DNA from: Candidatus Omnitrophota bacterium
GTDB taxonomy: Bacteria; Omnitrophota; Gorgyraeia; Zapsychrales; Zapsychraceae
Assembly (NCBI GenBank): GCA_018062515.1
Contig: JAGOSC010000001.1
Location: 40,765-104,764, forward strand
DNA length: 64,000 nt
Reading direction: 5' to 3'
In this document: piece after piece, positions 6,126 through 41,400 of the stretch
Layout: each line of letters begins with the position of its first letter
Position numbering within the stretch: the stretch's first letter is position 1
The notes under the pieces: generated by a model
Databases searched by the model: none
What the model saw: only the letters and a program-made list of their open reading frames with translations
What the model was told of the DNA's origin: nothing
Made by a program: the position numbers and the translations under genes

Positions 6126-6142
6126 TTGAACCCTTAAGTAAA

Positions 6143-7261: not shown

Positions 7262-7299
7262 AAGTTTATTACTTTATTTTTTTACGAAATATTTTCCGA

Positions 7300-8094: not shown

Positions 8095-8108
8095 GTACTT
8101 CCTCCTAG

Positions 8109-8735
8109 CTAAACCTGAACAAAAGATTCAGGATCGCTCCACTCGCCTTTTTCCTGCTGAAATTTTTTTGTTTTGTCGACGACCAATTCTCCGTCGTCGC
8201 CTAAAGTAATCTTAAAACGCTCCAAAGGCCGTGGCGCTGGTCCTTCAAAATTAACACCGGTTTTATAAAATCCGCTTCCGTGGCAGGGACATTTAAACTT
8301 CGCCTCGCTGGATAACCAATTCGGCGTGCAACCAAGATGTGTACAATATGTCGATAAAACGTAAATTTTTTCCGGATCCCGAACTATCCAAGCGCCTTGA
8401 GTTTCTTTATAACGTTCGGAAACCTCGCCGCTGACATAATCATCGGGACGACCAGCTCTAAAAGATTGTTTGGGTTCAAATAAAACATTCGGGAAAAGAT
8501 AACGAAGGACAAGTGTTCCATATCCGGCGAGAACAGCAGCAAATGCCGCCCAACCTAATGTTGACCACTTAATAAATGTCCGTCGGTCCATATTTTCAGG
8601 AACTTGCTGAACAGCATTAGCCGGCGATGAATTCACGATTTTGGAACTTTCAGCCAATTGTGAAACAGTGACACCAACTTGTTTTGGATTTAACTCTTTT
8701 TGAGGATCTTTATTTTGCGGGGTATCTTGACTCAT
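8109..8735 (-). CDS. Rieske [2Fe-2S] iron-sulfur subunit.
   Basis: 208 aa; CTHLGCTP ... CPCHGS cluster-binding boxes; TM anchor with a twin-arginine-like RRTFIKW. Confidence 0.85.
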
Positions 8736-8744
8736 GCTACGCGA

Positions 8745-20002: not shown

Positions 20003-20230
20003 CTATCTTATGCTGGACAATTGATCTTCCGTATTTATAACCGCGCCTAATATGAGTGGTAGATTTGTGATTGGGGTGACGTTGATAATGACCGGCATTA
20101 AACCATCATCAATTTGAATATTCTCAAAATTGTATACCTTATTACCCGCGTCAAGATTATTCCCTTGACCTCTAATTTCTAATTCCAATAAATCAAGGCT
20201 AAAATCAACCCCACCTGTAGGACTCTGCGC
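20003..20230 (-). other. Family C-terminal conserved domain of about 70 aa (P1 copy). The same domain ends P2 (34746-34990), P3 (38425-38700) and P4 (54757-55000).
   Basis: Four-way alignment by eye gives GG(I/V)D(F/L)NPxLLDL(E/Q)IxGxG - 20-30 aa - NIxIxxGxxP(V/I)IINxTPxTNxPxLLG, then a short acidic/polar tail. I do not recognise the domain. Confidence 0.7.
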
Positions 20231-23200
20231 AGCTCCAGATTTACTTTGTGAAAGGTCATTTGTCGTCGAAGCATTAGAAAAACCATTCTTTAAAGCGGGT
20301 TGTCTATTTATTATGTCCCTTTTTCCATTTTCAAATTTTCGGCTGAAATCTTTAAAATCTTCCGGAAACAATTGCGATACCATTTCAATACCTTCACTGA
20401 CCGTCATATTAGAAACTGCATTCTCAATATACTTCTTTCCGGTAATTTCCGTCCACTCTTTCGACGCCTCAACAAAGACATTTAATAATGGCCGCCCTGT
20501 CAACATAGCGCCTTTAAGGACCGGCTTTGCCGCGGGATATAATTTAGCCCATTTACTTTCCTTCATGGACAAATCGATATAAGCCGTCATCATTCTTTCT
20601 GCCATAGAAACAGAAATCAAACTTCCGACTACATCTTTTATCTCCGCGTCTTGCTTCTTGATCAATTCATTAATATTGTCTTCTAATATTTGTGGGCCGT
20701 AAATTTTGACTAACGTTAGCGCATCTTTTCTGAGCTTCATATCTTGAAATTTTATTTTTCCCATCAGACTCTCCGTCATCTTATAAACTGCTGGCTGCCA
20801 TAAGGAACTCAGGAAATAACGGTTTGTCTTTTCATAAAAATTCTTTTTTAAAATTTGTCTAAAATCCTGTTCCTGCTCATTGGATTCATCCCTCTCAATG
20901 TCCTCAACCACAATATATTTCGCCTGTTCTTGAGCGGCACGTACAGTATCTTCGTCGCTCAAGCTAATATACGACCCGATCGTTTGCAAAGTTTCCATGC
21001 CATTTGCCCAGTCAGTTGGAAAAAGATACATGGCCTGTGTAAAAGCCTTCAAGAAGGTTGAAAAATTCTTTGAAATGTGAGAATTTTTCACTTCAGATAC
21101 AGCTCTCATACTGATCATATTCATCGTCATTTTAAGATCAAACCCCTTATCTAAAACCTCCTGTATGCTCTCCAATGATATGCTCGTCATTTTCGATGAA
21201 GCGCTGTCAGTATTTATAAAAATAGTATCAATCCCTGTCTTTATAAGATCTTTTTCTCTTAATAAAAGCCCTTTAAATAAAACCTTGGCACCTTCGCTCT
21301 GTTTCTTATTTAATGTCCCAACGTTCCCTCTATCAATCAATACCAAGCCACCATCCGGGGTAATCATTACATTAGCCTGATGTAGGTCAGCATGGAAAAC
21401 TCCGTCGACAAATATATTGTGCAACAATAATTGACGTAATAATGAACGTAATTTATCGTAATCAAATTTCAATAGCTTTTCTGATAAACCGTTTAACTCT
21501 GTTTCAGAAAAGCCGGCTTTCTTAAGACCTAAAATAATATGAGCTTGCTTAGAGTCAAGCTTCACTAATTCACTATAAATACGCTTGGCTTCTAGAGGTG
21601 AATACCCCGCCTTTGTCACATCTTCAATAGAAACAGGGTTTTGATTAGGCGCAAGATTTAAAATAGGAATACCCTGAATTTCCTGTTCAACAATCAAAGA
21701 CTTGGTTGCGTAAAAAATCTTCGGATGAATCAAATGTACACCTGCTTCTTTTTGTAAATCTTCCGACCATGAATAATCTAAATCAGTAAGCATATCGGAA
21801 AATTTAACCTCATTCATAAAATCCATCTCAAGAGTGACCCACTCTTTTACCGTTTGGACTAAATCACCCAAGTTAATAGCTTCTCCTCTATATACGTCAC
21901 CTTGAAGATCTTCCGAGACGGATTCAAGTGTTGTAAAATCTGTATCTAAGGTTACTTCCATATCCGGACGTCTAATTTTATAGACAACCGGAACGCCAGC
22001 CTCTTCACGTTTTATCTTATATTGATTTGCTTTTGCGACAATATACGCCACCAGCCCGCTATTCATAATATCTTTACTTTGAAACAATGCCGATAACTGT
22101 GATCTTATTTCATTAGCCTCAGCCTCACTCTTAGCATTTTTGAGCACTAATTGGGATAATAGTTCAATATCCAACCATTTTCCTCTATTTACCTGCTTGA
22201 TCGATGCTACACCGACGGGGTTGTCCATTTCTTGAACAAAGATGTCACTGAACGGTATTTCATTCTCTAAAACAGAAAAACTCGCTATTTTTGTAATTTC
22301 TGGTGCGTTATTTCTTAAAGATCCCAGGTTAGAGCGCATACGTTTATCCGGAACTAAAGTTTCATTTTCCGATAAATATTGAGATACTTTAATACCGACG
22401 GAACCCAATACACCCAGAAAAACAGCTAATCGTTCTCCGACGCTGGTCTTTTCAAAATTCCCCTTAGCGCGTAATTGAGCTAAAGCCTTAATGACATGAA
22501 CCCGTCGATAAGCGGGAAATTTTTTCATAACAACCAAGAAAACTTTTTGTAGAAGAAGTCTCGCCTCACTTTCAAGACCGGGCATATTCTCCGGAAAAAT
22601 AAATATGAATGTCTTTTCCAAAAAATCCGACATAATTCGTACATCATTTTCATCTTGCGGATCCAAAACTCCATTATCCCCCAACATAAACCCTTCGATA
22701 AATTTATCCCGCATGGTTGACGGAAGCAGCTTCACATCACTTGGCAACGTTGTAAAATCTATATTTAATTTCGTTTCAGCATCCACGACAAACTTCGGTT
22801 TTTCCTGAGCCCCGACAACCCATAATAAAATATCCTTTCGCTCGTCCATTCTCGCCGCCCCAAAAAGATGCAGAACGGTTTCTGAAATAAAATCGTGCGT
22901 TCTCAAATCTTTATTCGGCGACAGCAAATTATTAACGTATAGCTCTTTAGTAATGTATGCCACCTCTTCTAAGTGCTTGACATATTTATTGGCGATCTGC
23001 ATTAACAAATCATCTCTGAGTATGCTGGGTTCGGGCATAAATTTTGTTAAGGCGTCAATATTGTCGGTTAGACCCAATTGCGTATTTTCGGGTAATTGTT
23101 TCCATAACATGTAAGCTGTTGCACCATAACGAGACGTTTTTTGGGGTGACAATAATAAAGGAATCATTGTTTGATAGAAATCCAGTAATTCATATATTCT

Positions 23201-26200
23201 TTCTGGTGCTATTTCTATCTGTTGATTTAATTTCTCCAAGCGCCCCACATCATCATCCATTTCTCCCAAAAGAGTCCACATATCCTGCATATCTGTTTCT
23301 TTCCCGGACACTTGACGGGCTAATTTTACCAAAGCTGGTAAATCAGCAATAATTTCAGGAAATACATCGGTTTCCCACATATCAATAACACCGTCTTTAA
23401 TGAGCGATTTATGAGGCATTGACGTTGTTAACCAGTTCAACCTTTCTGGGAGCGGCTTATAATCGCCATACACATATCCTTCGCCATGAATTTTTATATG
23501 CTCGTTTATGAGTCTCGTATAAACCGAAGAATTCTTAAAAAACTTTGCCATTATTTTCCGGTAGGGCACTTTCTCCCCACTCGTATGGTCCTTCAGAAAA
23601 CCGATTGGATCGTTGATAATTTGGTTACCAACATTCGGATTTTGCAATAATGGGACTACTTCTAAAAAATTACCTTGTAAATTATTTTTGATTATGTAAT
23701 TTTCCCATACCGTATCCAGTGTTGCGTTTGGAATAGCGACACCAAGTAAATTTTCTTTAATCTGCGCATATGAAATTTTACTTACATCATCTTTTTCAAA
23801 TTTAAAGTTCAGGCTTGTACTAGCAGAAATCACTCCGTCTTTGTTCTGAGAATAAGAAACCCTTAGCTCCATAAGATCATCCAGCCTATCCATACTATTC
23901 TTTTCCATCCATTTCGGATCACCCAATTTCTTAAACAGAATCAATGTCATTAAATTGGCAAAAAAATCATTGTATCCGGATAGTGAAAAATCTTCACCCC
24001 TATATTCAACTGTTGTATTAAGCGCCACATATTGTAATCTCTTTTTCAAAAGCTGCTTCAATTGATCGATGGATAAATTCGTTAAACTGGTTAGAAAAAT
24101 AGATTGATGATCATATTGATTATCATTCCAACCAAAATTATGAAGCGCGAATCGAGATATAATGGTCTTGAATGATCCTTTACCTTCTGCCTCAGGCATA
24201 ATACTCGTCTTACCTGATTTAAAATCGGGCGTCCCCTCGTCCTTTGAAACCCCGCGTGATTGATACATGTACACTCTTAAAGGTGTTGCAGCACTTAAGG
24301 TGGTCAAGGCCGAATAAATTGTTTCATCGACATAATTCTGATCACTCATTTTTCCAGACTCTTCCATCTTTTCACGCAACAAAGCTAAATAAACCTCGCC
24401 TGATTTTTCCGAAGCTTGAAATGTTTTTGACGTTTGACTAAAAAGGTATTCAAGCAGTGTACTTTGTAAATTCTTTAGATCTGAAATAGGCGCATCGTTA
24501 TCTTGATCTTTCACTGCCTTGAGATATTGCCTATAGATTACATCAGTAACCAATTTTTCGGTTAACTTAAGGGCGTCATTTTTGGAAAACATGCCTAAGA
24601 ACCATACAGCCACTTCTTGGGGATTTTGTTTAAACGAGCTGATAAAAAATTTAGTCAAACGTAAATTGACGTCCGACTCTAAAAATACACTTTCAAATAT
24701 TCTTCGACGCTGATCATAGTCAAGCCTATCTTTCATCCAAGAAAAAAGTTCAGTAATTGAAGCGTTTTCTGTAACAGAAACCTTTATCATCGATGCAACC
24801 TCATCAAAATTCTTATCCAAATATTCAGAAAGAGCCCAGTCCGGCAACTCTGATAAGGCTTTAAAAGATTTAATCTGCTTTTTATCCGGCATATTGTAGT
24901 CTAATCCGGTTTCATTTTGAAACGTGTCTGGCACATGCGCTATTCTTTCTAAGCGAGGCGAACTTATATCTTCTGTAGTATTTAGTTGGCTTGCCACCCA
25001 TAGGTCAGGGTCATTTTTCAGTAAAGAATCAATCGCATCATTATTTCTACCCAACTCAATATCAAAATATTTTTTCAACCTTTGACGCGCTATATTTAAT
25101 GCTTCTGACTTCGAATGTTCTCTTAGTAAAAGGTTATAATATTTTAAAAAAATAGTATCGAGATCCTGCTGTGACCCTCGAGTATGTAAATCAACACCTG
25201 GAAAAGAGCCATCTAAATAACGACTATTGATGTTTTTTATCGGCCTTTTTAAAATATACTGAAGAAGGATAATATTTTGAAGATTTTTTCGGGTATCCGC
25301 GGATTGAATATCGCGATATGAGGGATTTTGTAAATAAATGGAATTGCTTTTTTGTCGTAACTTTGCCTGAACATCCGTGGTTGGAACCTTAACATTCACG
25401 GACGGTTGTTGATCAATATATTTGGCGTAGAAAAAGGCAGAAATTAATTTCTTCGGATCTTTTATTGCCTTTTCAAAAATTGCTTCCGCTACGTAAGCTT
25501 TTTTTCCTTGCGGTAATGGCACCTTATTCCCTAAAATGTCAAGTCTTCCCGCATCTTTTGCATCTGTAAACATCGGGATCAATTCTTCAACTTCATTCAA
25601 GGGAAGCAAAAAATTATCAAAATCAGCGTCACTGAGGCTATTTTGTAGAGAAGTAATGGAATTTAATTTATTTAATAAATCCTTTCCGGAAGCAGATCTT
25701 CTCGTATCTCCACCCTTTTCTTTCGATTTTTCATAATCTCTTATGTAAGTTTCAACATCACCCTTTAAGTCTTTTAAAAAATCTCCATAAAAATCAGAAT
25801 CCTTACGTTCTGATACTTTGATTGTCTCATTATCTTGCCCGAATTCATAAATGGCAGCAGCACTTCTCATATCAGAATAATCAATTTTTTTATTATATAC
25901 ACTTATATCAAGCCTGCGTGTCATTGCTTCGTGAACCGCCTGTACATAAACGTTACGCAAAAAAGAAGTTTTTAAATCTTTTTCTTTAACTAAAGCTTTT
26001 AAGAAATTCATGCGCCTTCGCGTAACAAGCATTCCCGTTAATTCATCTAAAGCTGTGACGCTTTCTGCATTCTGTATCTGATCTAATAAATCTTGGTCGC
26101 TCGCATCCATAAAAAGTCGAAAATCAACGTCTTGACTTTTTATTTCTCCTTCTCCTGCCATATTTACTCGTGGAGCCTTGATATTTGTAAAAATATTTGT

Positions 26201-28264
26201 TTTTTGTTCATAAATTAATTGAGATAATTTATGTTTCCTGAGGCTTATGTAGGGATGCGAATCTAATATATTTTCGGCTTGGCTGGATTGTTGCATATAT
26301 TCCAGAAATCTCATAGCGTCAATGGCTCCTAGTACAGAATATCCCGCCTTATTCATCAATTCCAAAGCCACCATGTCTGCATCATATTCACCATTCTTGA
26401 TCATTTGCAACAAATAAGGCAAAGTCTCAGATCCATAAAAATCTCGAATATTAAGGCCGTAATGGGTGGTGTTTTGTATGGAATGGCTTAACTCATGCGC
26501 CATGACAAAGGCAATTGCATCTTCCGTAAGCGGAACGTTCATTTTCCCAGCGATATCATACAAAGCTTCATACAAACCTTTAAAGAAATATACATCCGTA
26601 CGATTACGTATCACAAATGCATTAATCTCATTTGAATCGATAATGCGCAACTCACCCGGTGAATCCTTGGTTTTTACTGTATAAATATCAATGAGGCGAT
26701 CAAATATTGTATGCATTTTTTCAGTAACCATATCGGTGTTTCGCGGTAATATGCCTGTATGTTCCATTTGCTTTTCGATCATAACAATGTTCCGTTCAAA
26801 ATTGGCTTCCACGTCGTCAACTGAGATACCCTGTTTTTTAGCAAGCTCCTCAATTAAAATTTCATCATACGTTTCATTCTTCTCAATTTTATATACAGGC
26901 TGTTTCGGCGTGGTTTCTTTTAGTTTTAAATTTTTGACAGGCTCTATTCTTGCTGCGGTTGTGTTCACATCTTTAGAACCAGTTAAGATCGCTGGATCAT
27001 TTACCGGAGGTAATTCTTCTTCCTGCCCTTCTTCCTCGTTAAATCTTTGTTTCATAAATTCATTAACCGTCTCCGGAGATATTTTTGAACTGATAAATGC
27101 TCCCGCAATGAAATGCCTTTTTGTAGCTTTATTTGTCTTAGCCAATTGTTCCTGGGTCACATTATCCGGCGTCACTGTCTGAAGCGGGACGATAATCTTG
27201 GTCAAAACCATACCGCCGGAAAAATATTTTCTGGGAATGATTTCCTGTGATACCGCGTCATATTCATCTTTGATATAATTATAAACGCCTTGTTTAAATG
27301 CTTCTAAATATTGCGCGTAAATTTTTTCTTTAGCGGAAGGATCATCAATCTCAACACCCCCGATTTTCTTCCGATCTGAAAATTTCTGATTCAATATACT
27401 TTGTTTCAGATTCTGTTTGTACCACTTCGCTAAAATCAATGAGTTATAGACTTGACGTAACTTGGAAAAATTTTTACCTTCGTTCACTTCTTTTTCAATT
27501 TCAGGTAAAATAATTTCCCGTATAACCTCAGATCCCAGTTTACTAGTATTTTGATTTTCTGATTCGCTTCTGCCTTTTAAACTTCTTTCATCGGTTCGGC
27601 TATGTTCCAATGCCACGTAATCTTCTTCCAACATAACCTTTAAATGGCTTTCAATAACATAGACAATATCGCCATTTTGATAAACTACGGCCTTTTCGGG
27701 AACTATCCAAACTTTATTAAATGTGTTAACAGGAACTTCAGTTGTTCCATATTCTTCCTGCGCACGTTGATAAATCTTCTTCCAAAATGCTTGTCCCAAG
27801 GCCTCTTCCGGATAAATTAATGACGCCGTCAATTGCTTTAAAATATAATCCTGGGCTAATAAATCGCGGCCCATTTCTGTCATACCAAATTCATTGGGTA
27901 CAATCCGATCCTTTTCATAGGGAGATAAATTCACCCATAGATCATCTTCTGGAATGGTTAATGAAGCCAAAAAATATTTAATTAACTTATTGGCCTCTTC
28001 TTTTAAGCGGTCGGGATTTAAGTCAACATCTCCGCTATCTAAAATGAAATCAAAATGAAAAGGATTATTAACCGCTATTTTCATACCGGTCAACATCGGA
28101 GGAATAAAGGCAGAAGTACGGGTAATCATCATACCCGGGAGAGGTAAATTAAGAACACTTTGCGCATAACTTGGCTGAGGCGGGACTACAAATGTCACAG
28201 CCAAAATAAGGCTTAGACAGGAAGAGAAAATTTTGTATAAGAAATGGTTTTTAAGCCGGGTCAT
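20003..28264 (-). CDS. Giant secreted protein P1 (2753 aa): signal peptide, family N-terminal domain, M48-type metallopeptidase domain, long helical region, UbiB/ABC1-type atypical kinase domain, family C-terminal domain.
   Basis: Uninterrupted 8.3-kb ORF. N-terminal signal sequence (LSLILAVTFVVPPQPSYAQS). HELSH...EYDAD (M48). ASIKQVNRG ... VYKIRRP ... EMDFMNE ... FHADLHQANVMITPDGGLVLIDRG (UbiB). C-terminus GGVDFSLDLLELEIRGQG...PVIINVTPITNLPLILG. Confidence 0.9.
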   Translation of the reverse strand: MTRLKNHFLYKIFSSCLSLILAVTFVVPPQPSYAQSVLNLPLPGMMITRTSAFIPPMLTGMKIAVNNPFHFDFILDSGDVDLNPDRLKEEANKLIKYFLASLTIPEDDLWVNLSPYEKDRIVPNEFGMTEMGRDLLAQDYILKQLTASLIYPEEALGQAFWKKIYQRAQEEYGTTEVPVNTFNKVWIVPEKAVVYQNGDIVYVIESHLKVMLEEDYVALEHSRTDERSLKGRSESENQNTSKLGSEVIREIILPEIEKEVNEGKNFSKLRQVYNSLILAKWYKQNLKQSILNQKFSDRKKIGGVEIDDPSAKEKIYAQYLEAFKQGVYNYIKDEYDAVSQEIIPRKYFSGGMVLTKIIVPLQTVTPDNVTQEQLAKTNKATKRHFIAGAFISSKISPETVNEFMKQRFNEEEGQEEELPPVNDPAILTGSKDVNTTAARIEPVKNLKLKETTPKQPVYKIEKNETYDEILIEELAKKQGISVDDVEANFERNIVMIEKQMEHTGILPRNTDMVTEKMHTIFDRLIDIYTVKTKDSPGELRIIDSNEINAFVIRNRTDVYFFKGLYEALYDIAGKMNVPLTEDAIAFVMAHELSHSIQNTTHYGLNIRDFYGSETLPYLLQMIKNGEYDADMVALELMNKAGYSVLGAIDAMRFLEYMQQSSQAENILDSHPYISLRKHKLSQLIYEQKTNIFTNIKAPRVNMAGEGEIKSQDVDFRLFMDASDQDLLDQIQNAESVTALDELTGMLVTRRRMNFLKALVKEKDLKTSFLRNVYVQAVHEAMTRRLDISVYNKKIDYSDMRSAAAIYEFGQDNETIKVSERKDSDFYGDFLKDLKGDVETYIRDYEKSKEKGGDTRRSASGKDLLNKLNSITSLQNSLSDADFDNFLLPLNEVEELIPMFTDAKDAGRLDILGNKVPLPQGKKAYVAEAIFEKAIKDPKKLISAFFYAKYIDQQPSVNVKVPTTDVQAKLRQKSNSIYLQNPSYRDIQSADTRKNLQNIILLQYILKRPIKNINSRYLDGSFPGVDLHTRGSQQDLDTIFLKYYNLLLREHSKSEALNIARQRLKKYFDIELGRNNDAIDSLLKNDPDLWVASQLNTTEDISSPRLERIAHVPDTFQNETGLDYNMPDKKQIKSFKALSELPDWALSEYLDKNFDEVASMIKVSVTENASITELFSWMKDRLDYDQRRRIFESVFLESDVNLRLTKFFISSFKQNPQEVAVWFLGMFSKNDALKLTEKLVTDVIYRQYLKAVKDQDNDAPISDLKNLQSTLLEYLFSQTSKTFQASEKSGEVYLALLREKMEESGKMSDQNYVDETIYSALTTLSAATPLRVYMYQSRGVSKDEGTPDFKSGKTSIMPEAEGKGSFKTIISRFALHNFGWNDNQYDHQSIFLTSLTNLSIDQLKQLLKKRLQYVALNTTVEYRGEDFSLSGYNDFFANLMTLILFKKLGDPKWMEKNSMDRLDDLMELRVSYSQNKDGVISASTSLNFKFEKDDVSKISYAQIKENLLGVAIPNATLDTVWENYIIKNNLQGNFLEVVPLLQNPNVGNQIINDPIGFLKDHTSGEKVPYRKIMAKFFKNSSVYTRLINEHIKIHGEGYVYGDYKPLPERLNWLTTSMPHKSLIKDGVIDMWETDVFPEIIADLPALVKLARQVSGKETDMQDMWTLLGEMDDDVGRLEKLNQQIEIAPERIYELLDFYQTMIPLLLSPQKTSRYGATAYMLWKQLPENTQLGLTDNIDALTKFMPEPSILRDDLLMQIANKYVKHLEEVAYITKELYVNNLLSPNKDLRTHDFISETVLHLFGAARMDERKDILLWVVGAQEKPKFVVDAETKLNIDFTTLPSDVKLLPSTMRDKFIEGFMLGDNGVLDPQDENDVRIMSDFLEKTFIFIFPENMPGLESEARLLLQKVFLVVMKKFPAYRRVHVIKALAQLRAKGNFEKTSVGERLAVFLGVLGSVGIKVSQYLSENETLVPDKRMRSNLGSLRNNAPEITKIASFSVLENEIPFSDIFVQEMDNPVGVASIKQVNRGKWLDIELLSQLVLKNAKSEAEANEIRSQLSALFQSKDIMNSGLVAYIVAKANQYKIKREEAGVPVVYKIRRPDMEVTLDTDFTTLESVSEDLQGDVYRGEAINLGDLVQTVKEWVTLEMDFMNEVKFSDMLTDLDYSWSEDLQKEAGVHLIHPKIFYATKSLIVEQEIQGIPILNLAPNQNPVSIEDVTKAGYSPLEAKRIYSELVKLDSKQAHIILGLKKAGFSETELNGLSEKLLKFDYDKLRSLLRQLLLHNIFVDGVFHADLHQANVMITPDGGLVLIDRGNVGTLNKKQSEGAKVLFKGLLLREKDLIKTGIDTIFINTDSASSKMTSISLESIQEVLDKGFDLKMTMNMISMRAVSEVKNSHISKNFSTFLKAFTQAMYLFPTDWANGMETLQTIGSYISLSDEDTVRAAQEQAKYIVVEDIERDESNEQEQDFRQILKKNFYEKTNRYFLSSLWQPAVYKMTESLMGKIKFQDMKLRKDALTLVKIYGPQILEDNINELIKKQDAEIKDVVGSLISVSMAERMMTAYIDLSMKESKWAKLYPAAKPVLKGAMLTGRPLLNVFVEASKEWTEITGKKYIENAVSNMTVSEGIEMVSQLFPEDFKDFSRKFENGKRDIINRQPALKNGFSNASTTNDLSQSKSGAAQSPTGGVDFSLDLLELEIRGQGNNLDAGNKVYNFENIQIDDGLMPVIINVTPITNLPLILGAVINTEDQLSSIR
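21030..22250 (-). other. UbiB/ABC1/ADCK-type atypical protein-kinase-like domain inside P1.
   Basis: Ordered family motifs: PVGVASIKQVNRG (A-S-I-x-Q-V-H-like), VVYKIRRP (VAVKVQRP-like), EMDFMNEVKF (E-x-D-F salt-bridge Glu), VHLIHPKIFY...LIVEQEIQG, and FHADLHQANVMI...LIDRG (F-H-A-D-P-H-P-G-N ... D-F-G equivalents). About 60 aa are inserted after the first motif. Confidence 0.6.
26290..26790 (-). other. M48-family (HtpX/BepA/Ste24-like) Zn-metallopeptidase domain inside P1.
   Basis: AFVMAHELSHSIQ (HExxH at 26483-26497) followed about 50 aa later by KNGEYDADMVALELMNKAGY, the M48 third-ligand E-x-x-x-(E/D)-A-D motif. Confidence 0.6.
27060..28264 (-). other. Family N-terminal conserved domain (signal peptide plus about 330 aa), P1 copy. 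Also at 37280-38357 (P2) and 49250-50334 (P3).
   Basis: Shared blocks: LNLP.PG, NPL.F.F, LIKYFLA.LT.P...LWVNLSPYEKD(R/K)(I/M)IP.EFG.TEMGRDLLAQDY.LKQ, YGTTEIPV.TFNK.WIVPE.A.VY, SHLKVML..DY.AL, NEGE.F..LRQ..NS.ILA.W(Y/F)K.NL, PR.YFSGG. Confidence 0.7.
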
Positions 28265-34745: not shown

Positions 34746-37700
34746 TTACGAGGAATGTTGATTGGCTACTTGTAACGGAACTTTATCAATAGAATTTTCC
34801 TGATCTGATTCGGATTCTCCCAAAAGCATTTGGATATTGATCACCGGCGCGACATTGATGATGACAGGCTGTATCCCTTCAATCTGAATGTTTTGAATTT
34901 TGATTGGATCAAACTCAAGATTATATTTAATTTCCGTCCCTTGTGTGTTTAATTGCATATGATCTGGATTAAAATCAATACCACCCAAAGGATCACCGGT
35001 TAAAGGTTTATCTTTATTATCCGTCGCGTTAGGATTCTTCTTTCTTCCTAAATTCTTAAAGCCCAGAGTCATTGCCCAGAACAGAAGCTGACTAAAGTGA
35101 ATAAGTTCTTCTCTGTCCTCATTTGATATATTTTTTTCCTCAATTAACGTGTCGGAAAAGTTAACAAAATCACCGTAAAGCAATGTCCCCGACGCAACGG
35201 CAATCAATATTTGTGAAAGAATTTTATCAAGATTCTTATTTTCAGAAACATCATAATTTGACAGGAACCACTGGATGACCGGATGATCAAGCGTTAATGA
35301 TTGACCACCAGAATTTTTTTCCAGAGCTTTCTTAAAATCCTGAACCATACTGTCATTCGCGGAATTTTCTAATTCTATATTCAACCTTTGAGAATTAAGG
35401 GCAATTTCTTTCATCTGTTTGACACTTAACGAACGCCCTATCGAGTCCACCGCTGCCCGCCAAACCTTTTCTTTTGCGCTCTGACCAAACAGTTGCGTAA
35501 AAATCAAATCATCATCTATAGTATGGGCAACGTTCATACTGTCACTATACGTGAGACCATTATCGTTAATATATTTCACCGCCTCAGGAGATATATTTTT
35601 CTTCAAATTTTCCTGAAAATCGTCATTTATAGGTTTTGGCAAGATGAATGGCGGTGTGATAGGAAACGATTTAAAGTCTTTATTATATAATTCAAACGCT
35701 GCTTGCTGGAGCAACTCGGGATACATGAGCATGTCATCAATCATTTCCCGAATCGTTTCCCCGTCCCTGGCATCTCGCACCTTTTTTGGTTTTAAACCTT
35801 TGACCCCTTTTTTCCGTAAAGATTTATAGACGGAATTAAAAATATAGGTGGCTACATAATCGTAAGGATTCTGATACCCATCATTCTCCTGTTTTCTTAG
35901 AATAATCCTCCCTAGACCGATTAAATCCAAAATAGGCCTTCTATTCTGCGCCATTGAATATAAATAAGCGCCCGTTTCATTAATAATCCTAATCTGTAGT
36001 CTGTCATCAAAGGAATCCCATAAACCATCATTAAGAGTTTTAAAATAATCTGTTCCGCTATACGAAGATGCGTCTCTAAAATACGCATGTTCGCCTTCAT
36101 GAACTCTTATATAGTTAATAATGTCCAGCTTGATTTCATCAGGCGACATCCCCGAAAAAGCTTCTCTGATTAATTGATCAATTCTGGATGATGTGACTGA
36201 ATCCGTTAATAAATAATTATTTCCATTTAACGTGTTAATGATATTTTGGGTTTCTTTATTTACATAATCCATATTGATAAAAAGTTCTCCATCCAGGTGT
36301 GCCCCCTGATGAGCAACCAAAGGATGGAATGGTAAATCAATTTTATTTACTTGCCGATAATAAAAAACTTTAATTTCTCTGCCGGCTAAAATAAATTTTT
36401 CCTCTTTATCCACCACAAATATGGCGATAACAGGAAGCATATCACCCGATTTTTTTTCGATTAGATCCATCCCCCCTAAAAAACCATTCCGAAGAAGGTA
36501 CACCTCGAATTCATCCCACTTCTTAAGAAAAGTAAAATCCTTACTTTTATAAAAAGCTGGATCCTCTTTCTGATAAGACATAACTAAATATTCCATATAC
36601 GCTTCTAAAGTTTCGGAAATATCTTTAGCTTTACGAACGAGATCAACTTCGAGCTCTCTGCGATTAGGAGATGAGTCAGTAACTGCGGTCATATACTTTG
36701 ACCAAACCTCTTCAAAAAATATCCGCAATTTTCTCGTTTCTTCTGATTCAATCATCCTCTGTTCCTGCCAATTTTTGTCATTGATGATATCCAACATCGC
36801 TTCTTTTAATAATCGGCCATTATCTTTTAAGGGGTCTTTTATTTCCAGCTTTGAAGCATCATAGGATGCAATTTTATAAAGATAAATAAACAGTTCAAAT
36901 ATTTTTGGATCATTTCCGAGATTTTTAAGATTATCCGAAAAATACTCTACGTCAACGGTCGTTTCTAAATAACGTTTCCACTCATTTATATCCGTCGAAA
37001 ACAAAAGAGGCTGCTCTGTCTTCTTCATATGCTCCAGGTACTGAGTTAGATCAGATAAAGCTATTTTTGTACTTTGCTGATTAGCGTGGTTGACTTCATT
37101 GACTAGAAAAACTTCGAGATTATCAGGCTTTCCTCCATCTTCTTTTTTATAATACTCTCCTGTTTGCGTAATCCCCAAAGCGACTAGCATCAGTGAAAAC
37201 ACACTAAAACTGGCATGGGTCGTTCTTTTAAGCCAGTTGACGGATGGTTTTTTATTTTCCTTACTGGTCAGTATTGCAGCATCTATTTTTGCCGCGTTTA
37301 TCCCCCCGGAAAAATACTTTCGAGGAATCATTTCCTGTGTTGTTGAATCGTATTCATCACGCACAAAATTATGTACACCCTTTTTAAATGATTCGACATA
37401 CTGCTCGTAAATTTTCTCGTTCCCATCTTTATCTTCAACCTCTAAACCTTTAACTTTTCCCTTATTAACAAAGATTCCACCTAATAAACTTTTTTGTAAA
37501 TTATGTTTGTACCACGTCGCTAAAATCATCGAATTATAAACTTGCCGTAAATTGGCGAATGTCTCGCCTTCATTCACTTCTTTCTCAACGGCCGGAATCA
37601 ATATGTTCTTCACTATTTCCGAAGACACGCCGCTGGTGATTTCAATATCTTCTTTTGTCACCTTGCCCAACCCGTGCTGTTGACTATTCTGATTATGCTC

Positions 37701-38357
37701 TAAAGCCAGATAATCCTCCTCGAGCATGACTTTAAGATGACTATCGACGACAAAAACGGTTGTTCCATTAACATACACATCCGCTCTTTCTGGAACAATC
37801 CAAATCTTGTTAAAAGTATTCATTGGGATTTCTGTAGTTCCATATTGTTCTTGAGCCTTCTTGTAAACTTCATCCCAGAATTTTCCCCCCAGTTTTTCGT
37901 CCGGATTCATTAATGAAGCTGAAAATTGTTTCAACATATAATCCTGGGCTAATAAATCCCTTCCCATTTGTGTTAATCCAAAATCAGTCGGAATAATACG
38001 ATCCTTTTCATACGGTGATAAATTCACCCACATTTGTTCGGATGGAACAGTAAGCGTTGTCAAGAAATACTCAATGAGCTTATTAGCCTCGGCGCGAAAT
38101 TCTTCCGAACCTTGAACTTTGTCGCCCGGATCGATAATAAAATCAAATTTCAAGGGGTTGTCAGGATAAATCGTAATGCCGGTGATGATGGGAGGATTAT
38201 AGGGCTGGCTGACTAGCACTGGTGTTCCCAGAGCAGGCAGATTGAGCACACTTTGCGCGTAACTTTGCTGTGGTGGAACAACAAACGTTACCACCAAAAT
38301 AAGGCTTAAATAAGCCGAAAAAGTCCTGAATATTATGTGTGTTCTTAGTTGACGCAT
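34746..38357 (-). CDS. Giant-family secreted protein P2 (1203 aa): signal peptide, family N-terminal domain, internal TM, HEGEH motif region, family C-terminal domain.
   Basis: N-terminus about 60% identical to P1 and P3 (LSLILVVTFVVPPQQSYAQSVLNLP..., WVNLSPYEKDRIIP..., HLKVMLEEDYLALEH). HEGEH at 36087-36101. C-terminus GGIDFNPDHMQLNTQG...PVIINVAPVINIQMLLG. Confidence 0.9.
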   Translation of the reverse strand: MRQLRTHIIFRTFSAYLSLILVVTFVVPPQQSYAQSVLNLPALGTPVLVSQPYNPPIITGITIYPDNPLKFDFIIDPGDKVQGSEEFRAEANKLIEYFLTTLTVPSEQMWVNLSPYEKDRIIPTDFGLTQMGRDLLAQDYMLKQFSASLMNPDEKLGGKFWDEVYKKAQEQYGTTEIPMNTFNKIWIVPERADVYVNGTTVFVVDSHLKVMLEEDYLALEHNQNSQQHGLGKVTKEDIEITSGVSSEIVKNILIPAVEKEVNEGETFANLRQVYNSMILATWYKHNLQKSLLGGIFVNKGKVKGLEVEDKDGNEKIYEQYVESFKKGVHNFVRDEYDSTTQEMIPRKYFSGGINAAKIDAAILTSKENKKPSVNWLKRTTHASFSVFSLMLVALGITQTGEYYKKEDGGKPDNLEVFLVNEVNHANQQSTKIALSDLTQYLEHMKKTEQPLLFSTDINEWKRYLETTVDVEYFSDNLKNLGNDPKIFELFIYLYKIASYDASKLEIKDPLKDNGRLLKEAMLDIINDKNWQEQRMIESEETRKLRIFFEEVWSKYMTAVTDSSPNRRELEVDLVRKAKDISETLEAYMEYLVMSYQKEDPAFYKSKDFTFLKKWDEFEVYLLRNGFLGGMDLIEKKSGDMLPVIAIFVVDKEEKFILAGREIKVFYYRQVNKIDLPFHPLVAHQGAHLDGELFINMDYVNKETQNIINTLNGNNYLLTDSVTSSRIDQLIREAFSGMSPDEIKLDIINYIRVHEGEHAYFRDASSYSGTDYFKTLNDGLWDSFDDRLQIRIINETGAYLYSMAQNRRPILDLIGLGRIILRKQENDGYQNPYDYVATYIFNSVYKSLRKKGVKGLKPKKVRDARDGETIREMIDDMLMYPELLQQAAFELYNKDFKSFPITPPFILPKPINDDFQENLKKNISPEAVKYINDNGLTYSDSMNVAHTIDDDLIFTQLFGQSAKEKVWRAAVDSIGRSLSVKQMKEIALNSQRLNIELENSANDSMVQDFKKALEKNSGGQSLTLDHPVIQWFLSNYDVSENKNLDKILSQILIAVASGTLLYGDFVNFSDTLIEEKNISNEDREELIHFSQLLFWAMTLGFKNLGRKKNPNATDNKDKPLTGDPLGGIDFNPDHMQLNTQGTEIKYNLEFDPIKIQNIQIEGIQPVIINVAPVINIQMLLGESESDQENSIDKVPLQVANQHSS

Positions 38358-38424: not shown

Positions 38425-41400
38425 CTAGGAATTAATCCTAGAATGCAGTCGTTTTGGGTCATCACTCAGGTGCTTATACTGGAAACTATACTCTGTTGGA
38501 TTACCTTCCTGATCGACGAGGCCTAGAAGAAACGGCATATTGGTCACTGGTGTTAAATTGATAATGACGGGAATAAAACCTTCGATATTTTTGAGAAGAT
38601 CGGCTGGCTGCTGCAACATCGGCAACGGGATACCGTTACCGTCACGTTTAATTTGAAGGTCTAAAAGCTCCGGATTCAAATCAATCCCGCCGGGGGTTTC
38701 AGGATTTTTGGTATTCGACACGGGAACACCATTAACTTTCATGTCCCCACCACTCCATCCATTGAGATACAGTTTATTTTTCCAATTCTTTTGTTCACGC
38801 TGAAACTCCTTCTCGGTAAAAATCTTTTCTCTATTACTTCCACGAGAATTTTTGCGAGGCGCTAATTTGATACCCTTCTTTTCCAAAGCTGTTTCCGCTA
38901 AACGAAGCATATATTTTTTTGCTAGCCATTCATCCCATCTATATTGGATCTTCTCCGGGTGGTCATTAGAATTTTCAACCTTTAGAAGTTCCCCACGAAT
39001 CTTCTTTTTAAGTTTTTTAAGCTTTTCTAAATCTAGTACGCCATTACCTTTTATTTGGAGAGCATGCACCCATATTTGCGCATCAATCCGATGTGCTAGC
39101 AATTTCCGGTCATGAGGCGATAAGACTGTCCAGTCTTCAGCTTTCAAATTCTTTAACTGAGCAAGTTCTCTTGCGTTTAACGAGAGCAATTCATGAGTTA
39201 TCTTAGCTAAAGTCATTTTTAACATTCGCTCAATTTCTACATTTATTAGTGGTTGTTCCTCGGGGTCTACATCAAAATTAATTAGATCTTCCCATTCGTT
39301 TTCATCCTGAAAATCAGAAATCATAGCGTGATCAATTTTTTCTTTAACGCTTGATAATATTTTAGTCCATCTTTCCGACGATGGACCGATAAATTTCTCT
39401 CCACTTTCTTCTTTTATTTTCGTTTCCTGAATGCGAGCGTTAAGAATGCTGACGACAAATGATTTTAACGGCTGTTGAGAAATCCATTCAATCAATTTCT
39501 CGTCCTGAATAGCCGGATTTTCTTCAATTAAATGATTTAATTTTGAATCAAGATCGCTAAATATATCCTTCAAGAATTTAGCTAATTTTTGCTGATCAAC
39601 CGGCGTGCTTTGGGCATCAAGATAATCTAAAATCTTATTTAATTCCGCCTTCTGCTTCTCATTAAAGGCATTCAGAGTTTTATGATCAGGCAGTTCATTT
39701 TCCTCCAAAACACTTTCAATGACCAGTTCAAGTAGGTATTGAATTTCTTGTTTAAGCATCAATTCCTTATCCGGCATTTTCGAAATTTTTTCAACGATGG
39801 CTAATGAAAATTCGACAAATCCGGACGACGACCAATTAGGACTAGAGGTAAAAAATATCTTAAAATCCTCATCAATTTTACTTAATAATAAAGTTAAAAT
39901 CTGGTCAGCACTATGATTCACAACTATTAACCGCGCATTAATCCTTTTAATGAGATCCTCTGATTCAGCTGATTTTCTTTTTTGTTCAAGCTGTAAACTA
40001 GTTAGACCGCTTAAATCACTTTTTAATGCCTCTAGTTCTAAAAGCGGACGATTCTCTTTTTCCAAATACCGTGAAAGCGGCAACTCAAGTACATAACTAA
40101 AAGGTTCATATTGATATTCGATTCCTTCCTGAGATAATTTAGTGAGGAGCTTTACGGCGCTTGATTCTCCGTGCGTATGGACCCAAATTTGTGCTTGTAT
40201 ACGTGATAAAACAATCGCTATGCCTTGCAGGCTGCCAGACACATTTATATCTTCGCTTCCTGTGAGACTATTTAAACCAGCCGAAACGACTGTTACTAAA
40301 TCTTTCTGCACTTCAGAATCCAACTTCTTAATATATTCTTGATAATTTGAAAATTTGCCTTTGTCATTTCTCAAACCATTCTCAAGCACATCATTAATTT
40401 TTGTTAACTCAGTACGAGTAAGTTGCGCCAACATGTTCTGAAAAATTTGATCTTCTTGCGTGTTTTCATTCTGGGATCCGAGAATTTTTGTTACAGTCAT
40501 CCATTCTTCCAAAGAATATTTTCCTGTTTCCACCGCCGTCGGTTGTTTTCTAACTGAAGCAGGATTGTTTGGTTCAGCCGAAGGCTCATTCAATTTAATC
40601 ATATCCTTCTCGGAAAATATTTCTTCATTCTCTAAGTCATGTTCATCATGCATAATCGCTGCTTCTAAAACATACAAAAGAGGTTGATGAGGCTCAATCA
40701 TAATTCCCGCGCGAGATGTTTCGATAAGAAGCTGTAAAACGCCTAATTTCTTAAGTTCGAGTAAGCGTTTTTGGGCTTTAAATCTTCTTAAAACAATATT
40801 CCACTCGACGGGTTTATTGACCCTTAAAACTCTAAGTAAATTCTTGGGATTATTACGCCACGTTTCATATCCTTGCGACTTTTCTACTTCCAGACTGTCG
40901 ATCCCAGTCACAATCGCATTCCGGTAATTTGTCTGCTCCTCAGAAGTGAACTGGCTAAACATTCCCATTAAAGCATATTCGAGGGTTGGTTCATCATTCG
41001 TGTTCCCAAGCTCCATGATTTTAATTAACATGTCGAGCTCTTCCACGTTCAATTCATTGAGTAGTTTCTTAAATTCTTCATCAGATTTTTCACCTCTTTC
41101 CGTTAAATAGATGGGAACCATTTCCCCCGACTTATTCTCTTTATATCGATAAATAATGTGAGGTGCAGTAAGAACAACATTAATGGCATACCATTCCAAA
41201 GGTGGACGGCGGCCTTGTTTCCTCAAGGCCATCTTTTTTTCTTCCGATGCATTCACCCAATCGTTCGTTTCAGATTCATACATTTGTAATGTTTTAATCT
41301 CAATGGAGGTTAATGTCTTGACTGGTTTTGATAATAAGTCCTTAATATACGCCTTTGTGACCATCATAGCCTGATCCTCATCATGATTATCTTTTTCAAG

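What the first reader, a model, noticed from the sequence alone, without database searches (positions are those of the whole stretch)
20003..20230. Novel conserved C-terminal domain shared by all four giant proteins (candidate sorting or anchoring signal)
The last 70-90 aa of P1, P2, P3 and P4 align with fixed positions: GGIDFNP, LLDLEI.G.G, NI.I..G, and the proline-punctuated hydrophobic run PVIINVTPITNLPLLLG, followed by a short acidic tail. Copies are at 20003-20230, 34746-34990, 38425-38700 and 54757-55000. It is too long and too proline-rich to be a simple TM tail as in PEP-CTERM or GlyGly-CTERM. The size and the N-terminal signal peptide are reminiscent of T9SS-style C-terminal domains, but the motifs differ. 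Conservation exceeds that of the adjacent cargo regions, implying a recognised functional module.
Basis: seen in the sequence. Interest (0 to 1): 0.85.

Follow-up and report, generated by a model that had tools for sequence, protein, structure and literature searches.

The report
Docking tail of Omnitrophota giant proteins
The shared ~60-residue C-terminal tail is real, but it is only one half of an undescribed two-part frame (signal peptide plus a ~320-residue N-terminal module, then variable cargo, then the tail) found on thousands of almost cysteine-free exported proteins of the phylum Omnitrophota; it matches no known sorting signal and probably works by binding the N-terminal module.

Summary
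All four minus-strand giants end in GGID(F/L)NP..L.L, a 25-30 aa spacer, then P(V/I)IIN.TP.TN.P.LLG and a mostly acidic extension. A profile of the tail finds 5,554 cluster representatives among 1.84 billion proteins, always at the extreme C-terminus. Named sources are almost all Omnitrophota, and the window itself is a public Omnitrophica MAG.

The tail is undescribed: no Pfam, NCBIfam, PDB or literature match. It is not a T9SS-like beta-sandwich, and it lacks the motif/TM-helix/basic-cluster design of sortase-type signals.

- The tail is nearly always paired with a far better conserved N-terminal module (52-56% identity among P1-P3), which follows a Sec signal peptide with an invariant A|Q site.
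- The mature proteins are essentially cysteine-free: 2 Cys in 10,986 aa, both inside signal peptides, against about 120 expected.
- The cargo is cytoplasmic-type enzymes and signalling domains.

AlphaFold2 predicts the tail as unstructured when alone (pLDDT 63) but confident (82-92) when the N-module is in the same chain. The N-module fold has no PDB match.

Best model, which is inferred and not shown: the tail is a docking peptide that clasps the N-module, in cis or head-to-tail. No conserved partner gene lies nearby.

The parts
20003..28264 (-). P1, complete family member (2753 aa): signal peptide, N-module, cargo with Peptidase_M48 (aa 514-599) and ABC1 kinase (aa 2089-2339), then tail
   Evidence: Deposited as MBP9853291.1 'M48 family metalloprotease' with a start 22 codons further in.
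28163..28264 (-). P1 predicted Sec signal peptide (aa 1-34, ...PPQPSYA|QSV); holds P1's only cysteine (C16)
   Evidence: The A|Q site is invariant in the family. Cleavage is inferred, not shown.
27212..28162 (-). P1 N-terminal module (aa 35-351, ends ...RKYFSGG)
   Evidence: 56% and 55% identity to P2 and P3. HMM hits of E ~1e-130 to 1e-172 in other members. Predicted fold has no PDB match.
20045..20215 (-). P1 tail core (aa 2684-2740): GGVDFS..LLELEI...PVIINVTPITNLPLILG; hydrophobic run at 20045-20095
20006..20044 (-). P1 post-tail extension AVINTEDQLSSIR (acidic, ends in the Phi-S-x-Phi-[NRKQ] motif)
34746..38357 (-). P2, complete family member (1203 aa, no cysteine); signal peptide 38256-38357, N-module 37302-38255
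   Evidence: MBP9853299.1 'hypothetical protein KBD53_00350'.
34818..34985 (-). P2 tail core (aa 1125-1180): GGIDFNPDHMQLNTQG...PVIINVAPVINIQMLLG
38425..50334 (-). P3, complete family member (3969 aa), in tandem with P2; signal peptide 50224-50334 (holds its only Cys, C18), N-module 49291-50223
38521..38691 (-). P3 tail core (aa 3882-3938): GGIDLNPELLDLQIKRDGNGIPLP...PVIINLTPVTNMPFLLG (the commonest subtype in the family)
54757..64000 (-). P4, N-terminally truncated by the window edge (at least 3061 aa, no cysteine); AAA_5-like region and LRRs (aa 1937-2151 of the visible part)
54799..54969 (-). P4 tail core: GGIDFNPGLLDLEIQGKG...PIIINITPITNLPLLLG; extension ATVNEEEMLSSVR at 54760-54798

Best explanation
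The tail is the C-terminal half of a bipartite frame that defines a large protein family specific to Omnitrophota. The architecture is: Sec signal peptide (cleaved at an invariant A|Q), a ~320-aa N-terminal module with a new alpha/beta fold, an interchangeable cargo region (roughly 0.1 to 5.4 thousand residues in the members seen), a short linker, a ~57-aa tail, and a short and usually acidic extension. The tail is not an autonomous domain, a TM anchor or a sortase-type signal. It is an extended peptide that becomes ordered by docking onto the N-module. It does this either in cis, tying both ends into one composite 'clasp' domain from which the cargo protrudes as a giant loop, or in trans, linking molecules head to tail. 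The composite N-module-plus-tail unit is then what is recognised, retained or assembled outside the cytoplasm. The near-total absence of cysteine indicates that the polypeptides function in, or must cross, an oxidising extracytoplasmic compartment without forming disulfides. Shown here: the architecture, its near-obligate pairing, its size and taxonomic restriction, the cysteine depletion, and the lack of any known homologue. Inferred: signal-peptide cleavage, docking of the tail on the N-module, and the extracytoplasmic location. Unknown: whether docking is cis or trans, and the final destination.
Against: The docking inference rests only on context-dependent pLDDT. Coordinates and PAE were not available, so no contact was seen. 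The control used a different tail (window P4) from the in-context model (P0279). A covariation test between N-module and tail columns was inconclusive: MIp maximum 0.292 versus a permuted-pairing maximum averaging 0.259 and reaching 0.289, with 105 sequences. The cargo consists of enzymes that normally need cytoplasmic substrates: PGK, PGI, PGM, UDP-glucose pyrophosphorylase, PPDK, FBPase, receiver domains, ABC1 kinase. That sits uneasily with a periplasmic or surface location unless the proteins are delivered into another cell. About a quarter of members, including P1 and P4, end in a conserved acidic stretch plus Phi-S-x-Phi-[NRKQ]-COOH, which could instead mean that the C-terminus is read by some machinery. 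One orphan tail without an N-module exists (L083).
Confidence: 0.5

Rival explanations
1. The tail is a secretion or sorting signal read in trans by machinery encoded elsewhere in the genome, such as an outer-membrane translocon, a T2SS-like system, or a C-terminal processing protease. The N-module is an independent retention or anchoring domain. This would work like LapA-type giant adhesins, which have an N-terminal retention module and a C-terminal secretion signal, or like T9SS cargo.
For: The tail is strictly C-terminal. Family members are many per genome and dispersed, a many-substrates-to-one-machine pattern. Cysteine depletion fits passage of an unfolded chain through a narrow channel. 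The extension is acidic, and 64 of 285 members have a conserved extreme C-terminal motif against 7 of 652 neighbouring ORFs. Papers report T2SS/pilus-like loci next to many Omnitrophota giant genes (10.1101/2023.11.21.568195).
Against: No known signal family matches. No conserved neighbouring gene was found in 82 loci. T1SS substrates lack Sec signal peptides, whereas these proteins have classical ones. The tail gains confident structure only when the N-module is present, which a free signal would not need. The tail's sequence is far more conserved than T1SS signals typically are (established knowledge).
Confidence: 0.25
2. The proline-punctuated hydrophobic run is a C-terminal membrane anchor, either a tail anchor in the inner or outer membrane or a substrate for an exosortase/rhombosortase-like enzyme.
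For: The run is the only hydrophobic segment besides the signal peptide. Kyte-Doolittle 19-residue maxima are 1.5-1.9 in the four copies.
Against: Across 272 tails the run is only 17 aa, carries 3 prolines in 213 of 272 and about 4 polar residues, and has mean hydropathy 1.35. The next 10 residues have mean net charge -2.0 and are net positive in only 35 of 272, so there is no basic stop-transfer cluster. Residue identity is conserved, not merely hydrophobicity. No PEP-CTERM, GlyGly-CTERM, LPXTG, MYXO-CTERM or other NCBIfam sorting model is hit at E<=1.
Confidence: 0.08
3. The tail is an autonomous C-terminal sorting domain of the T9SS CTD type (a small beta-sandwich).
For: The size (~60-90 aa) and the pairing with an N-terminal signal peptide resemble T9SS cargo. 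One of 27 family members has a weak Por_Secre_tail Pfam hit (E 1.8e-6) at an undetermined position.
Against: None of 44 tails hits Por_Secre_tail/TIGR04183 even at E<=1. The tail alone is predicted as coil without strands. The family is confined to Omnitrophota, whereas T9SS is known from Bacteroidota and relatives (established knowledge). No T9SS genes were seen near the loci.
Confidence: 0.02
4. The shared ends are simply vertical remnants of one ancestral ~500-aa protein into which cargo has repeatedly been inserted, and the tail has no function separable from that protein's fold.
For: Minimal members of 564-695 aa exist. The N-module ends in an invariant YFSGG and the tail begins with GGID. 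The two ends are modelled confidently together.
Against: This is largely compatible with the best explanation, as its evolutionary side, rather than a true alternative. Strong purifying selection on the tail across thousands of paralogues, with saturated synonymous sites, shows that the tail itself is functional.
Confidence: 0.15

Closest known systems
Tripartite C-terminal sorting signals (LPXTG/sortase, PEP-CTERM/exosortase, GlyGly-CTERM/rhombosortase, MYXO-CTERM/myxosortase, PGF-CTERM/archaeosortase)
   Same: A conserved module at the extreme C-terminus of many signal-peptide-bearing paralogues per genome, with a signature motif followed by a hydrophobic stretch.
   Different: It is three to four times longer. 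The hydrophobic stretch is 17 aa with three conserved prolines. It is followed by acidic rather than basic residues. It matches no model. It is always paired with a specific N-terminal module, which these signals never require.
T9SS C-terminal domain (Por_Secre_tail, PF18962/TIGR04183)
   Same: Similar length, C-terminal position, Sec signal peptide at the other end, and highly diverse cargo.
   Different: No sequence match. It is not predicted to fold alone and has no beta-sandwich. It occurs in a different phylum.
LapA/RTX-type giant adhesins (N-terminal retention module plus C-terminal T1SS signal)
   Same: A bipartite conserved frame around a giant variable middle, almost no cysteine, and an acidic C-terminal region. 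This comparison rests on established knowledge of that family.
   Different: These proteins have classical Sec signal peptides. They have no RTX nonapeptides or adhesin repeats. Their cargo is enzymes and signalling domains. No adjacent ABC transporter/MFP genes were found.
Donor-strand or terminal-peptide complementation (chaperone-usher and type V pilins; encapsulin cargo-loading peptides)
   Same: A short terminal peptide that is unstructured alone and becomes ordered by inserting into a partner domain. This is the principle proposed here for the tail and the N-module.
   Different: There is no homology. The acceptor here is a ~320-aa alpha/beta module in the same polypeptide. Polymerisation or encapsulation has not been shown.
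Omnitrophota giant proteins described as 'Archaeovorins' and Dockerin-type giants (West-Roberts et al. 2023, 10.1101/2023.11.21.568195; 2026 preprint 10.64898/2026.06.07.730766)
   Same: Same phylum and an overlapping cargo repertoire (phosphoglucomutase, starch synthase, receiver domains, HEAT repeats). A nearby PilZ gene occurs in the window.
   Different: Those papers treat proteins of 10,000 aa and more that have many TM helices, SecA-like and C39 domains. They do not mention this N-module/tail frame or the cysteine depletion. The members seen here are 0.56-5.8 thousand aa with no internal TM segments.

Membership tests
T9SS C-terminal domain (Por_Secre_tail PF18962 / TIGR04183) | Sequence match to the CTD profile | tested here: not met
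   No hit for the 4 window tails at E<=10, nor for 44 tails at E<=1, in Pfam or NCBIfam.
T9SS C-terminal domain (Por_Secre_tail PF18962 / TIGR04183) | Autonomous Ig-like beta-sandwich fold of ~80-100 aa | tested here: not met
   AlphaFold2 on the tail alone with a 44-sequence alignment gives pLDDT 62.7, pTM 0.20 and no strands.
T9SS C-terminal domain (Por_Secre_tail PF18962 / TIGR04183) | Host genome encodes T9SS components (PorK/L/M/N, SprA, PorU/V) | not tested
   Only 64 kb of the genome and flanks of +/-10 kb at 82 loci were seen, and none showed a recurrent neighbour. The whole genome was not searched.
Sortase/exosortase-type tripartite sorting signals (LPXTG, PEP-CTERM, GlyGly-CTERM, MYXO-CTERM, PGF-CTERM and others) | Match to a curated sorting-signal model | tested here: not met
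   NCBIfam release 20.0 gives no such hit for 44 tails at E<=1.
Sortase/exosortase-type tripartite sorting signals (LPXTG, PEP-CTERM, GlyGly-CTERM, MYXO-CTERM, PGF-CTERM and others) | Hydrophobic segment able to form a TM helix (~20 uninterrupted hydrophobic residues) | tested here: not met
   The run is 17 aa, has 3 prolines in 213 of 272 tails and about 4 polar residues, and has mean hydropathy 1.35.
Sortase/exosortase-type tripartite sorting signals (LPXTG, PEP-CTERM, GlyGly-CTERM, MYXO-CTERM, PGF-CTERM and others) | Cluster of basic residues at the extreme C-terminus | tested here: not met
   The first 10 residues after LLG have mean net charge -2.0, negative in 204 and positive in 35 of 272. 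The extension has a median length of 29 aa.
Sortase/exosortase-type tripartite sorting signals (LPXTG, PEP-CTERM, GlyGly-CTERM, MYXO-CTERM, PGF-CTERM and others) | Cognate processing enzyme co-occurring in the genome | not testable with these tools
   This needs whole-genome phylogenetic profiling across Omnitrophota.
Type I secretion substrates (RTX/LapA-like) | No N-terminal Sec signal peptide; the C-terminal signal is uncleaved | tested here: not met
   P1-P3 and 25 displayed family members have classical signal peptides with an A|Q site.
Type I secretion substrates (RTX/LapA-like) | RTX GGxGxDxUx repeats upstream of the signal; adjacent ABC/MFP genes | tested here: not met
   There are no RTX/HemolysinCabind Pfam hits in P1-P4 or in 27 members, and no recurrent neighbour.
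Autotransporters / inverse autotransporters (T5SS) | A terminal 12-16-stranded beta-barrel domain | tested here: not met
   The tail is too short. The N-module is predicted as a mixed alpha/beta fold with about 8 helices of 9 or more residues and four beta-hairpins, not a barrel. There are no autotransporter Pfam hits.
Omnitrophota N-module/tail frame family (defined here) | Sec signal peptide with A|Q site, then N-module ending in YFSGG | tested here: met
   Met for P1, P2 and P3. P4 cannot be tested because its N-terminus lies outside the window.
Omnitrophota N-module/tail frame family (defined here) | Tail GGID.NP..L.L...P.IIN.TP.TN.P.LLG within 55 aa of the C-terminus | tested here: met
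   Met for P1-P4. The extensions after the core are 13-31 aa.
Omnitrophota N-module/tail frame family (defined here) | Mature chain essentially free of cysteine | tested here: met
   There are no Cys after the signal peptide in P1-P3 or in the visible 3061 aa of P4.

The most novel reading that the evidence does not exclude
The N-module and the tail are two halves of a single new split 'clasp' domain. The tail peptide inserts into the N-module of the same molecule, closing a giant cargo loop, or of the next molecule, building head-to-tail chains or a surface coat. This would give Omnitrophota a generic, phylum-specific system for exporting and displaying cysteine-free versions of normally cytoplasmic enzymes and signalling proteins outside the cell or into prey or host cells. 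It would be an export/assembly principle unrelated to any known secretion or sorting system.
Probability: 0.3. Interest if true: 0.85.

Novelty: new variant of a known kind. Interest (0 to 1): 0.66.

Why it matters
Omnitrophota are ubiquitous, uncultivated ultra-small bacteria thought to be predators or parasites. What their giant proteins do, and how they leave the cell, is an open question. This finding supplies a concrete handle on it: a sequence-defined frame (signal peptide, N-module, tail) that tags thousands of proteins and takes up half of this 64-kb window. The frame's cargo is glycolytic and sugar-nucleotide enzymes, kinases, proteases, AAA ATPases, LRRs and receiver domains, all purged of cysteine. 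The frame makes it possible to list the whole presumed exported or delivered proteome of any Omnitrophota genome with two HMMs. It also gives small (~560 aa) natural constructs for structural and localisation experiments. It predicts a testable peptide-domain interaction. Finally, it corrects public annotation, where members are currently labelled 'hypothetical protein' or named after a cargo domain and sometimes have their signal peptide trimmed off.

Tried and rejected
- Pfam and NCBIfam scans of the tails, the N-modules and the whole proteins found nothing for either conserved end.
- PDB sequence searches with single sequences and with profiles found nothing.
- A search for a conserved neighbouring gene clustered 652 neighbour ORFs from 82 loci. 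The top cluster occurs in only 13 loci, about 4 kb away, and looks like a generic PAS-type regulator, so the partner-gene idea was rejected.
- The covariation (MIp) test between the N-module and the tail was inconclusive with 105 sequences. Two earlier versions of that script timed out.
- Model coordinates could not be obtained, so contacts could not be measured.
- 'Stand-alone tail' and 'N-module-only' proteins were checked. L001, L085, L086 and L087 are frameshift or low-coverage fragments. Only L083 remains an unexplained orphan tail.
- The attempt to recover P4's N-terminus from the source contig failed, because only a 9.7-kb Logan contig was returned.
- Gene conversion or a DNA-level repeat as the cause of the similarity was rejected, because synonymous sites are near saturation.
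- The inverse-autotransporter idea (N-module as a beta-barrel) was rejected on the predicted secondary structure.
- The search for related loci with the ragged alignment A3 failed and was repeated with a core alignment.

Full report
**1. What is in the window**

All ORFs of 150 aa or more lie on the minus strand. Four very long ORFs take up 32,970 of the 64,000 bases:
- P1, 20003-28264, 2753 aa
- P2, 34746-38357, 1203 aa
- P3, 38425-50334, 3969 aa
- P4, 54757-63942 and beyond, at least 3061 aa

They are interspersed with ordinary housekeeping genes: F-type ATP synthase, a Rieske/cytochrome b complex with a multihaem cytochrome c, haem biosynthesis, cytochrome c biogenesis and molybdopterin synthesis. 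Exact-sequence look-up shows that the window comes from a public Candidatus Omnitrophica MAG with locus tags KBD53_* and a contig of 111,417 bp. P2 is deposited as 'hypothetical protein'. P1 is deposited as 'M48 family metalloprotease'.

**2. The observation**

In a four-way alignment, 13 columns are invariant: GG.D, L, G..P.IIN..P..N, and LG.

All-against-all BLASTP of the four proteins aligns only two regions. One is the last ~57-89 aa, at E 2e-4 to 5e-13 and 38-49% identity. The other is the first ~350 aa of P1, P2 and P3, at 52-56% identity and E 1e-114 to 1e-137.

The P4 frame is still open at base 64000, so its N-terminus lies outside the window. Third-codon positions at conserved residues are only 36-58% identical. 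The copies are therefore old paralogues under purifying selection on the protein, not products of recent gene conversion.

**3. How widespread the tail is and where it sits**

A word-indexed search with the four tails returned 44 short proteins, one of them named Candidatus Omnitrophica. An exhaustive HMMER search with a 44-sequence profile (A3) against 1.84 billion representatives gave 5,554 proteins at E<=1e-3 and 2,553 at E<=1e-10. In all 150 listed hits the match lies at the extreme C-terminus of proteins of 85-5,808 aa.

A scan of one genome per species found 183 confirmed sites using a single strict peptide pattern. The 80 loci kept are Candidatus Omnitrophota MAGs or automatically labelled 'Planctomycetales' or 'bacterium' MAGs. 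Several genomes contribute three or four loci each. The named genera Aceula and Zapsychrus are Omnitrophota.

In those loci, 98 stop-to-stop ORFs carry the tail. The match always ends no more than 55 aa before the stop, with a median of 14. Thirteen of the 80 loci hold two or more members within 20 kb, as with P2-P3 here.

**4. The tail is half of a bipartite frame**

- Of 65 tail-bearing database proteins of at least 600 aa, 50 have the N-terminal module at their very N-terminus: 49 at E <= 1e-130 and one N-terminally cut at 7e-74. The remaining 15 start in mid-protein.
- In the genome loci, 50 of 57 tail ORFs not cut at the 5' edge have the N-module. 52 of 58 N-module ORFs not cut at the 3' edge have the tail. 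Four exceptions on each side are the same genes, split into overlapping ORFs.
- Apparent stand-alone tails or N-modules on long contigs turned out to be artefacts. L001 is an out-of-frame junction next to a 7-nt tandem repeat. L085, L086 and L087 are roughly 2x coverage long-read contigs shattered by frameshifts.
- One orphan tail remains. It lies in frame 63 nt after a stand-alone response regulator (L083).
- Minimal complete members of 564-695 aa consist of the N-module, a spacer of roughly 130-240 aa and the tail.
- The N-module has more than 1,290 relatives at E<=1e-10. All are unannotated and almost all named ones are Omnitrophica/Omnitrophota. It has about 78 invariant positions among 27 diverse members and ends in YFSGG.

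**5. Export signal and cysteine depletion**

P1-P3 and the 25 displayed family members begin with a basic n-region, a ~16-20-aa hydrophobic core and PP..(S/A/V)xA|Q. The A and the Q are invariant. This is the pattern of a signal peptidase I substrate by established rules. Cleavage itself is inferred.

The only other hydrophobic segment is the tail run. The four giants contain 2 cysteines in 10,986 residues, against about 120 expected from the 1.09% in the other proteins of the window. Both cysteines lie inside the signal peptides, at P1 C16 and P3 C18.

The depletion is family-wide. There are 21 Cys in 83,704 mature residues of 44 database members (0.025%) and 41 in 103,097 residues of 57 genome-locus members (0.040%). 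Neighbouring ORFs have about 1.3%. Other predicted exported proteins in the window do contain cysteine, so this is a property of the family and not of the organism.

**6. Cargo**

- P1 carries a Peptidase_M48 and an ABC1 kinase domain.
- P4 carries an AAA_5-like region and leucine-rich repeats.
- P2 and P3 have no Pfam domain.
- Among 27 other complete members the cargo includes receiver domains (4), UDP-glucose pyrophosphorylase (4), phosphoglucomutase (3), phosphoglycerate kinase (2), phosphoglucose isomerase, pyruvate phosphate dikinase, CofD, starch synthase, 2H phosphoesterase and HEAT repeats.
- L001 has FBPase and PGM domains.

These are normally cytoplasmic activities. They overlap the 'sugar metabolism' module reported for the much larger Omnitrophota giants (10.64898/2026.06.07.730766).

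**7. What the tail is not**

- No Pfam-A or NCBIfam model is hit by the four tails at E<=10 or by 44 tails at E<=1. These libraries include Por_Secre_tail and the curated sortase-, exosortase- and rhombosortase-type signals.
- Across 272 distinct tails the hydrophobic run is 17 aa, has three prolines in 213 cases and about four polar residues, and has mean hydropathy 1.35.
- The following ten residues have mean net charge -2.0 and are net positive in only 35 tails. The extension has a median length of 29 aa.

The motif/TM-helix/basic-cluster design of classical C-terminal sorting signals is therefore not met.

No neighbouring gene recurs. The best cluster occurs in 13 of 82 loci at a median distance of ~4 kb and looks like a PAS-type regulator. 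No paper in the library contains the motifs. The two papers on Omnitrophota giant genes and the Nature Microbiology survey describe neither the frame nor the cysteine depletion.

**8. Structure prediction**

AlphaFold2 on the 564-aa minimal member P0279, with a 95-sequence alignment (A5), gave mean pLDDT 74 and pTM 0.69:
- The N-module (residues ~40-345) is mostly above 90. It is a mixed alpha/beta fold with long helices and four beta-hairpins.
- The spacer (346-493) is mostly below 50.
- The tail (501-550) is at 82-92 although it is mostly coil with two short strands.

The window's P4 tail, folded alone with its 44-sequence alignment, gave pLDDT 62.7, pTM 0.20 and no strands. Its GGID-L.L part drops from ~90 to ~58. 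The tail therefore does not behave as an autonomous domain. It is modelled confidently only in the presence of the N-module, which is the signature of a docking peptide.

There are three caveats. Coordinates and PAE were not available. The control used a different tail sequence. A mutual-information test between the two modules was inconclusive, with an observed maximum of 0.292 against a permuted maximum averaging 0.259 and reaching 0.289, from 105 sequences.

**9. Most likely mechanism**

The proteins are exported by Sec and cleaved at A|Q. The tail then binds the N-module. This happens either in cis, which makes one composite terminal domain with the cargo as a giant loop, or in trans, which links molecules head to tail. 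That composite unit is what is retained, recognised or assembled in the envelope or on the surface.

Cysteine has been purged because the chains work in, or must pass unfolded through, an oxidising compartment. I give this model about 0.5.

The main rival, at about 0.25, is that the tail is read in trans by unidentified machinery while the N-module is an independent retention domain. That would be functionally like LapA-type adhesins or T9SS cargo. In its favour, about a quarter of members, including P1 (...QLSSIR) and P4 (...MLSSVR), end in an acidic stretch plus Phi-S-x-Phi-[NRKQ]-COOH (64 of 285 against 7 of 652 neighbouring ORFs).

A TM anchor (0.08) and a T9SS-type CTD (0.02) are disfavoured by direct tests.

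The cytoplasmic-type cargo remains unexplained by any purely periplasmic model. It hints at delivery into another cell or at extracellular metabolism of prey contents, in line with the predatory or parasitic lifestyle proposed for the phylum (PMC10066038). That is speculation.

**10. Novelty and verdict**

The tail is real and abundant. As far as the libraries and papers available here show, it is undescribed. It belongs to no known sorting-signal family.

I rate it a new variant of a known kind: a conserved terminal module framing diverse exported cargo. It has an unusual obligate pairing with an N-terminal module and may work by an unprecedented clasp mechanism. The 'categorically new' reading has a probability of about 0.3.

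Interest is 0.66. It remains substantial because the frame, the cysteine purge and the enzyme cargo together make the question of what Omnitrophota giant proteins do directly testable.

Noticed in passing
window 27212-28264, 37302-38357, 49291-50334 (minus strand): P1, P2 and P3 share a signal peptide plus a ~320-aa N-terminal module at 52-56% identity, far stronger than the tail similarity. The module has more than 1,290 unannotated relatives, no Pfam, NCBIfam or PDB match, and a confidently predicted fold with no solved relative.
   Followed up: yes
window P1-P4 coding regions; family members in L002-L081: There is extreme cysteine depletion: 2 Cys in 10,986 aa in the window, both inside signal peptides, and 0.025-0.04% family-wide against ~1.1-1.3% in neighbouring proteins. 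Members carrying PGK, PGI and PGM enzyme domains fit the same pattern.
   Followed up: yes
window 28199-28264 (start of P1): The deposited P1 protein (MBP9853291.1, 2731 aa) starts 22 codons downstream of the ATG that the alignment with P2 and P3 supports. The public annotation therefore lacks most of the signal peptide, and it names the whole 2753-aa protein after one cargo domain (M48).
   Followed up: partly
window 52949-53311 (minus strand): A 120-aa PilZ-domain protein lies two genes downstream of P4, after HemN. West-Roberts et al. 2023 report that small pilZ genes commonly follow Omnitrophota giant genes.
   Followed up: no
L083 9551-10243 (GCA_964515035.1, CAZEUO010000002.1); same arrangement in L084: An orphan tail ORF (80 aa, P0040) lies in the same frame 63 nt after a stand-alone 129-aa response regulator, separated by a single TAA. 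No N-module is present upstream. It could be a remnant of a decayed family gene, a stop-codon read-through, or a genuine small protein.
   Followed up: partly
L001 6600-6700 (GCA_016212005.1, JACRHP010000079.1): The tail is out of frame with a 2176-aa ORF carrying FBPase and PGM domains. The junction sits at a 7-nt tandem repeat (CAGTCAC x3), which suggests slippage, either an assembly error or real frame switching.
   Followed up: partly
family members P0045-P0183 and L002-L081; absent from window P1-P4: 'SSSP' occurs 47 times in 126 family giants against 2.3 expected. A broader [AVS]SSP[VILMA] motif often lies 4-31 aa upstream of the tail's GGID. It may be a linker, processing or glycosylation site in other clades.
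   Followed up: partly
window 20006-20023 and 54760-54777; family C-termini: A third mini-motif lies at the very C-terminus. An acidic stretch followed by Phi-S-x-Phi-[NRKQ]-COOH (consensus ...KAREPE(L/I)S(A/S)LN) occurs in 64 of 285 members against 7 of 652 neighbouring ORFs. P1 (QLSSIR) and P4 (MLSSVR) fit; P2 and P3 do not.
   Followed up: partly
one of the 27 proteins of alignment A7 (P0054-P0180): A single family member has a Pfam Por_Secre_tail hit (E 1.8e-6). Which protein it is, and where in the protein the hit lies, were not determined. No tail itself hits this model.
   Followed up: no
window 3186-9611 (minus strand): The window holds a Rieske / split cytochrome b / 979-aa multihaem cytochrome c gene cluster next to a complete F-type ATP synthase operon. 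This Omnitrophota genome therefore encodes at least part of a respiratory chain, whereas a 2026 preprint describes electron transport as incomplete in most complete Omnitrophota genomes.
   Followed up: no
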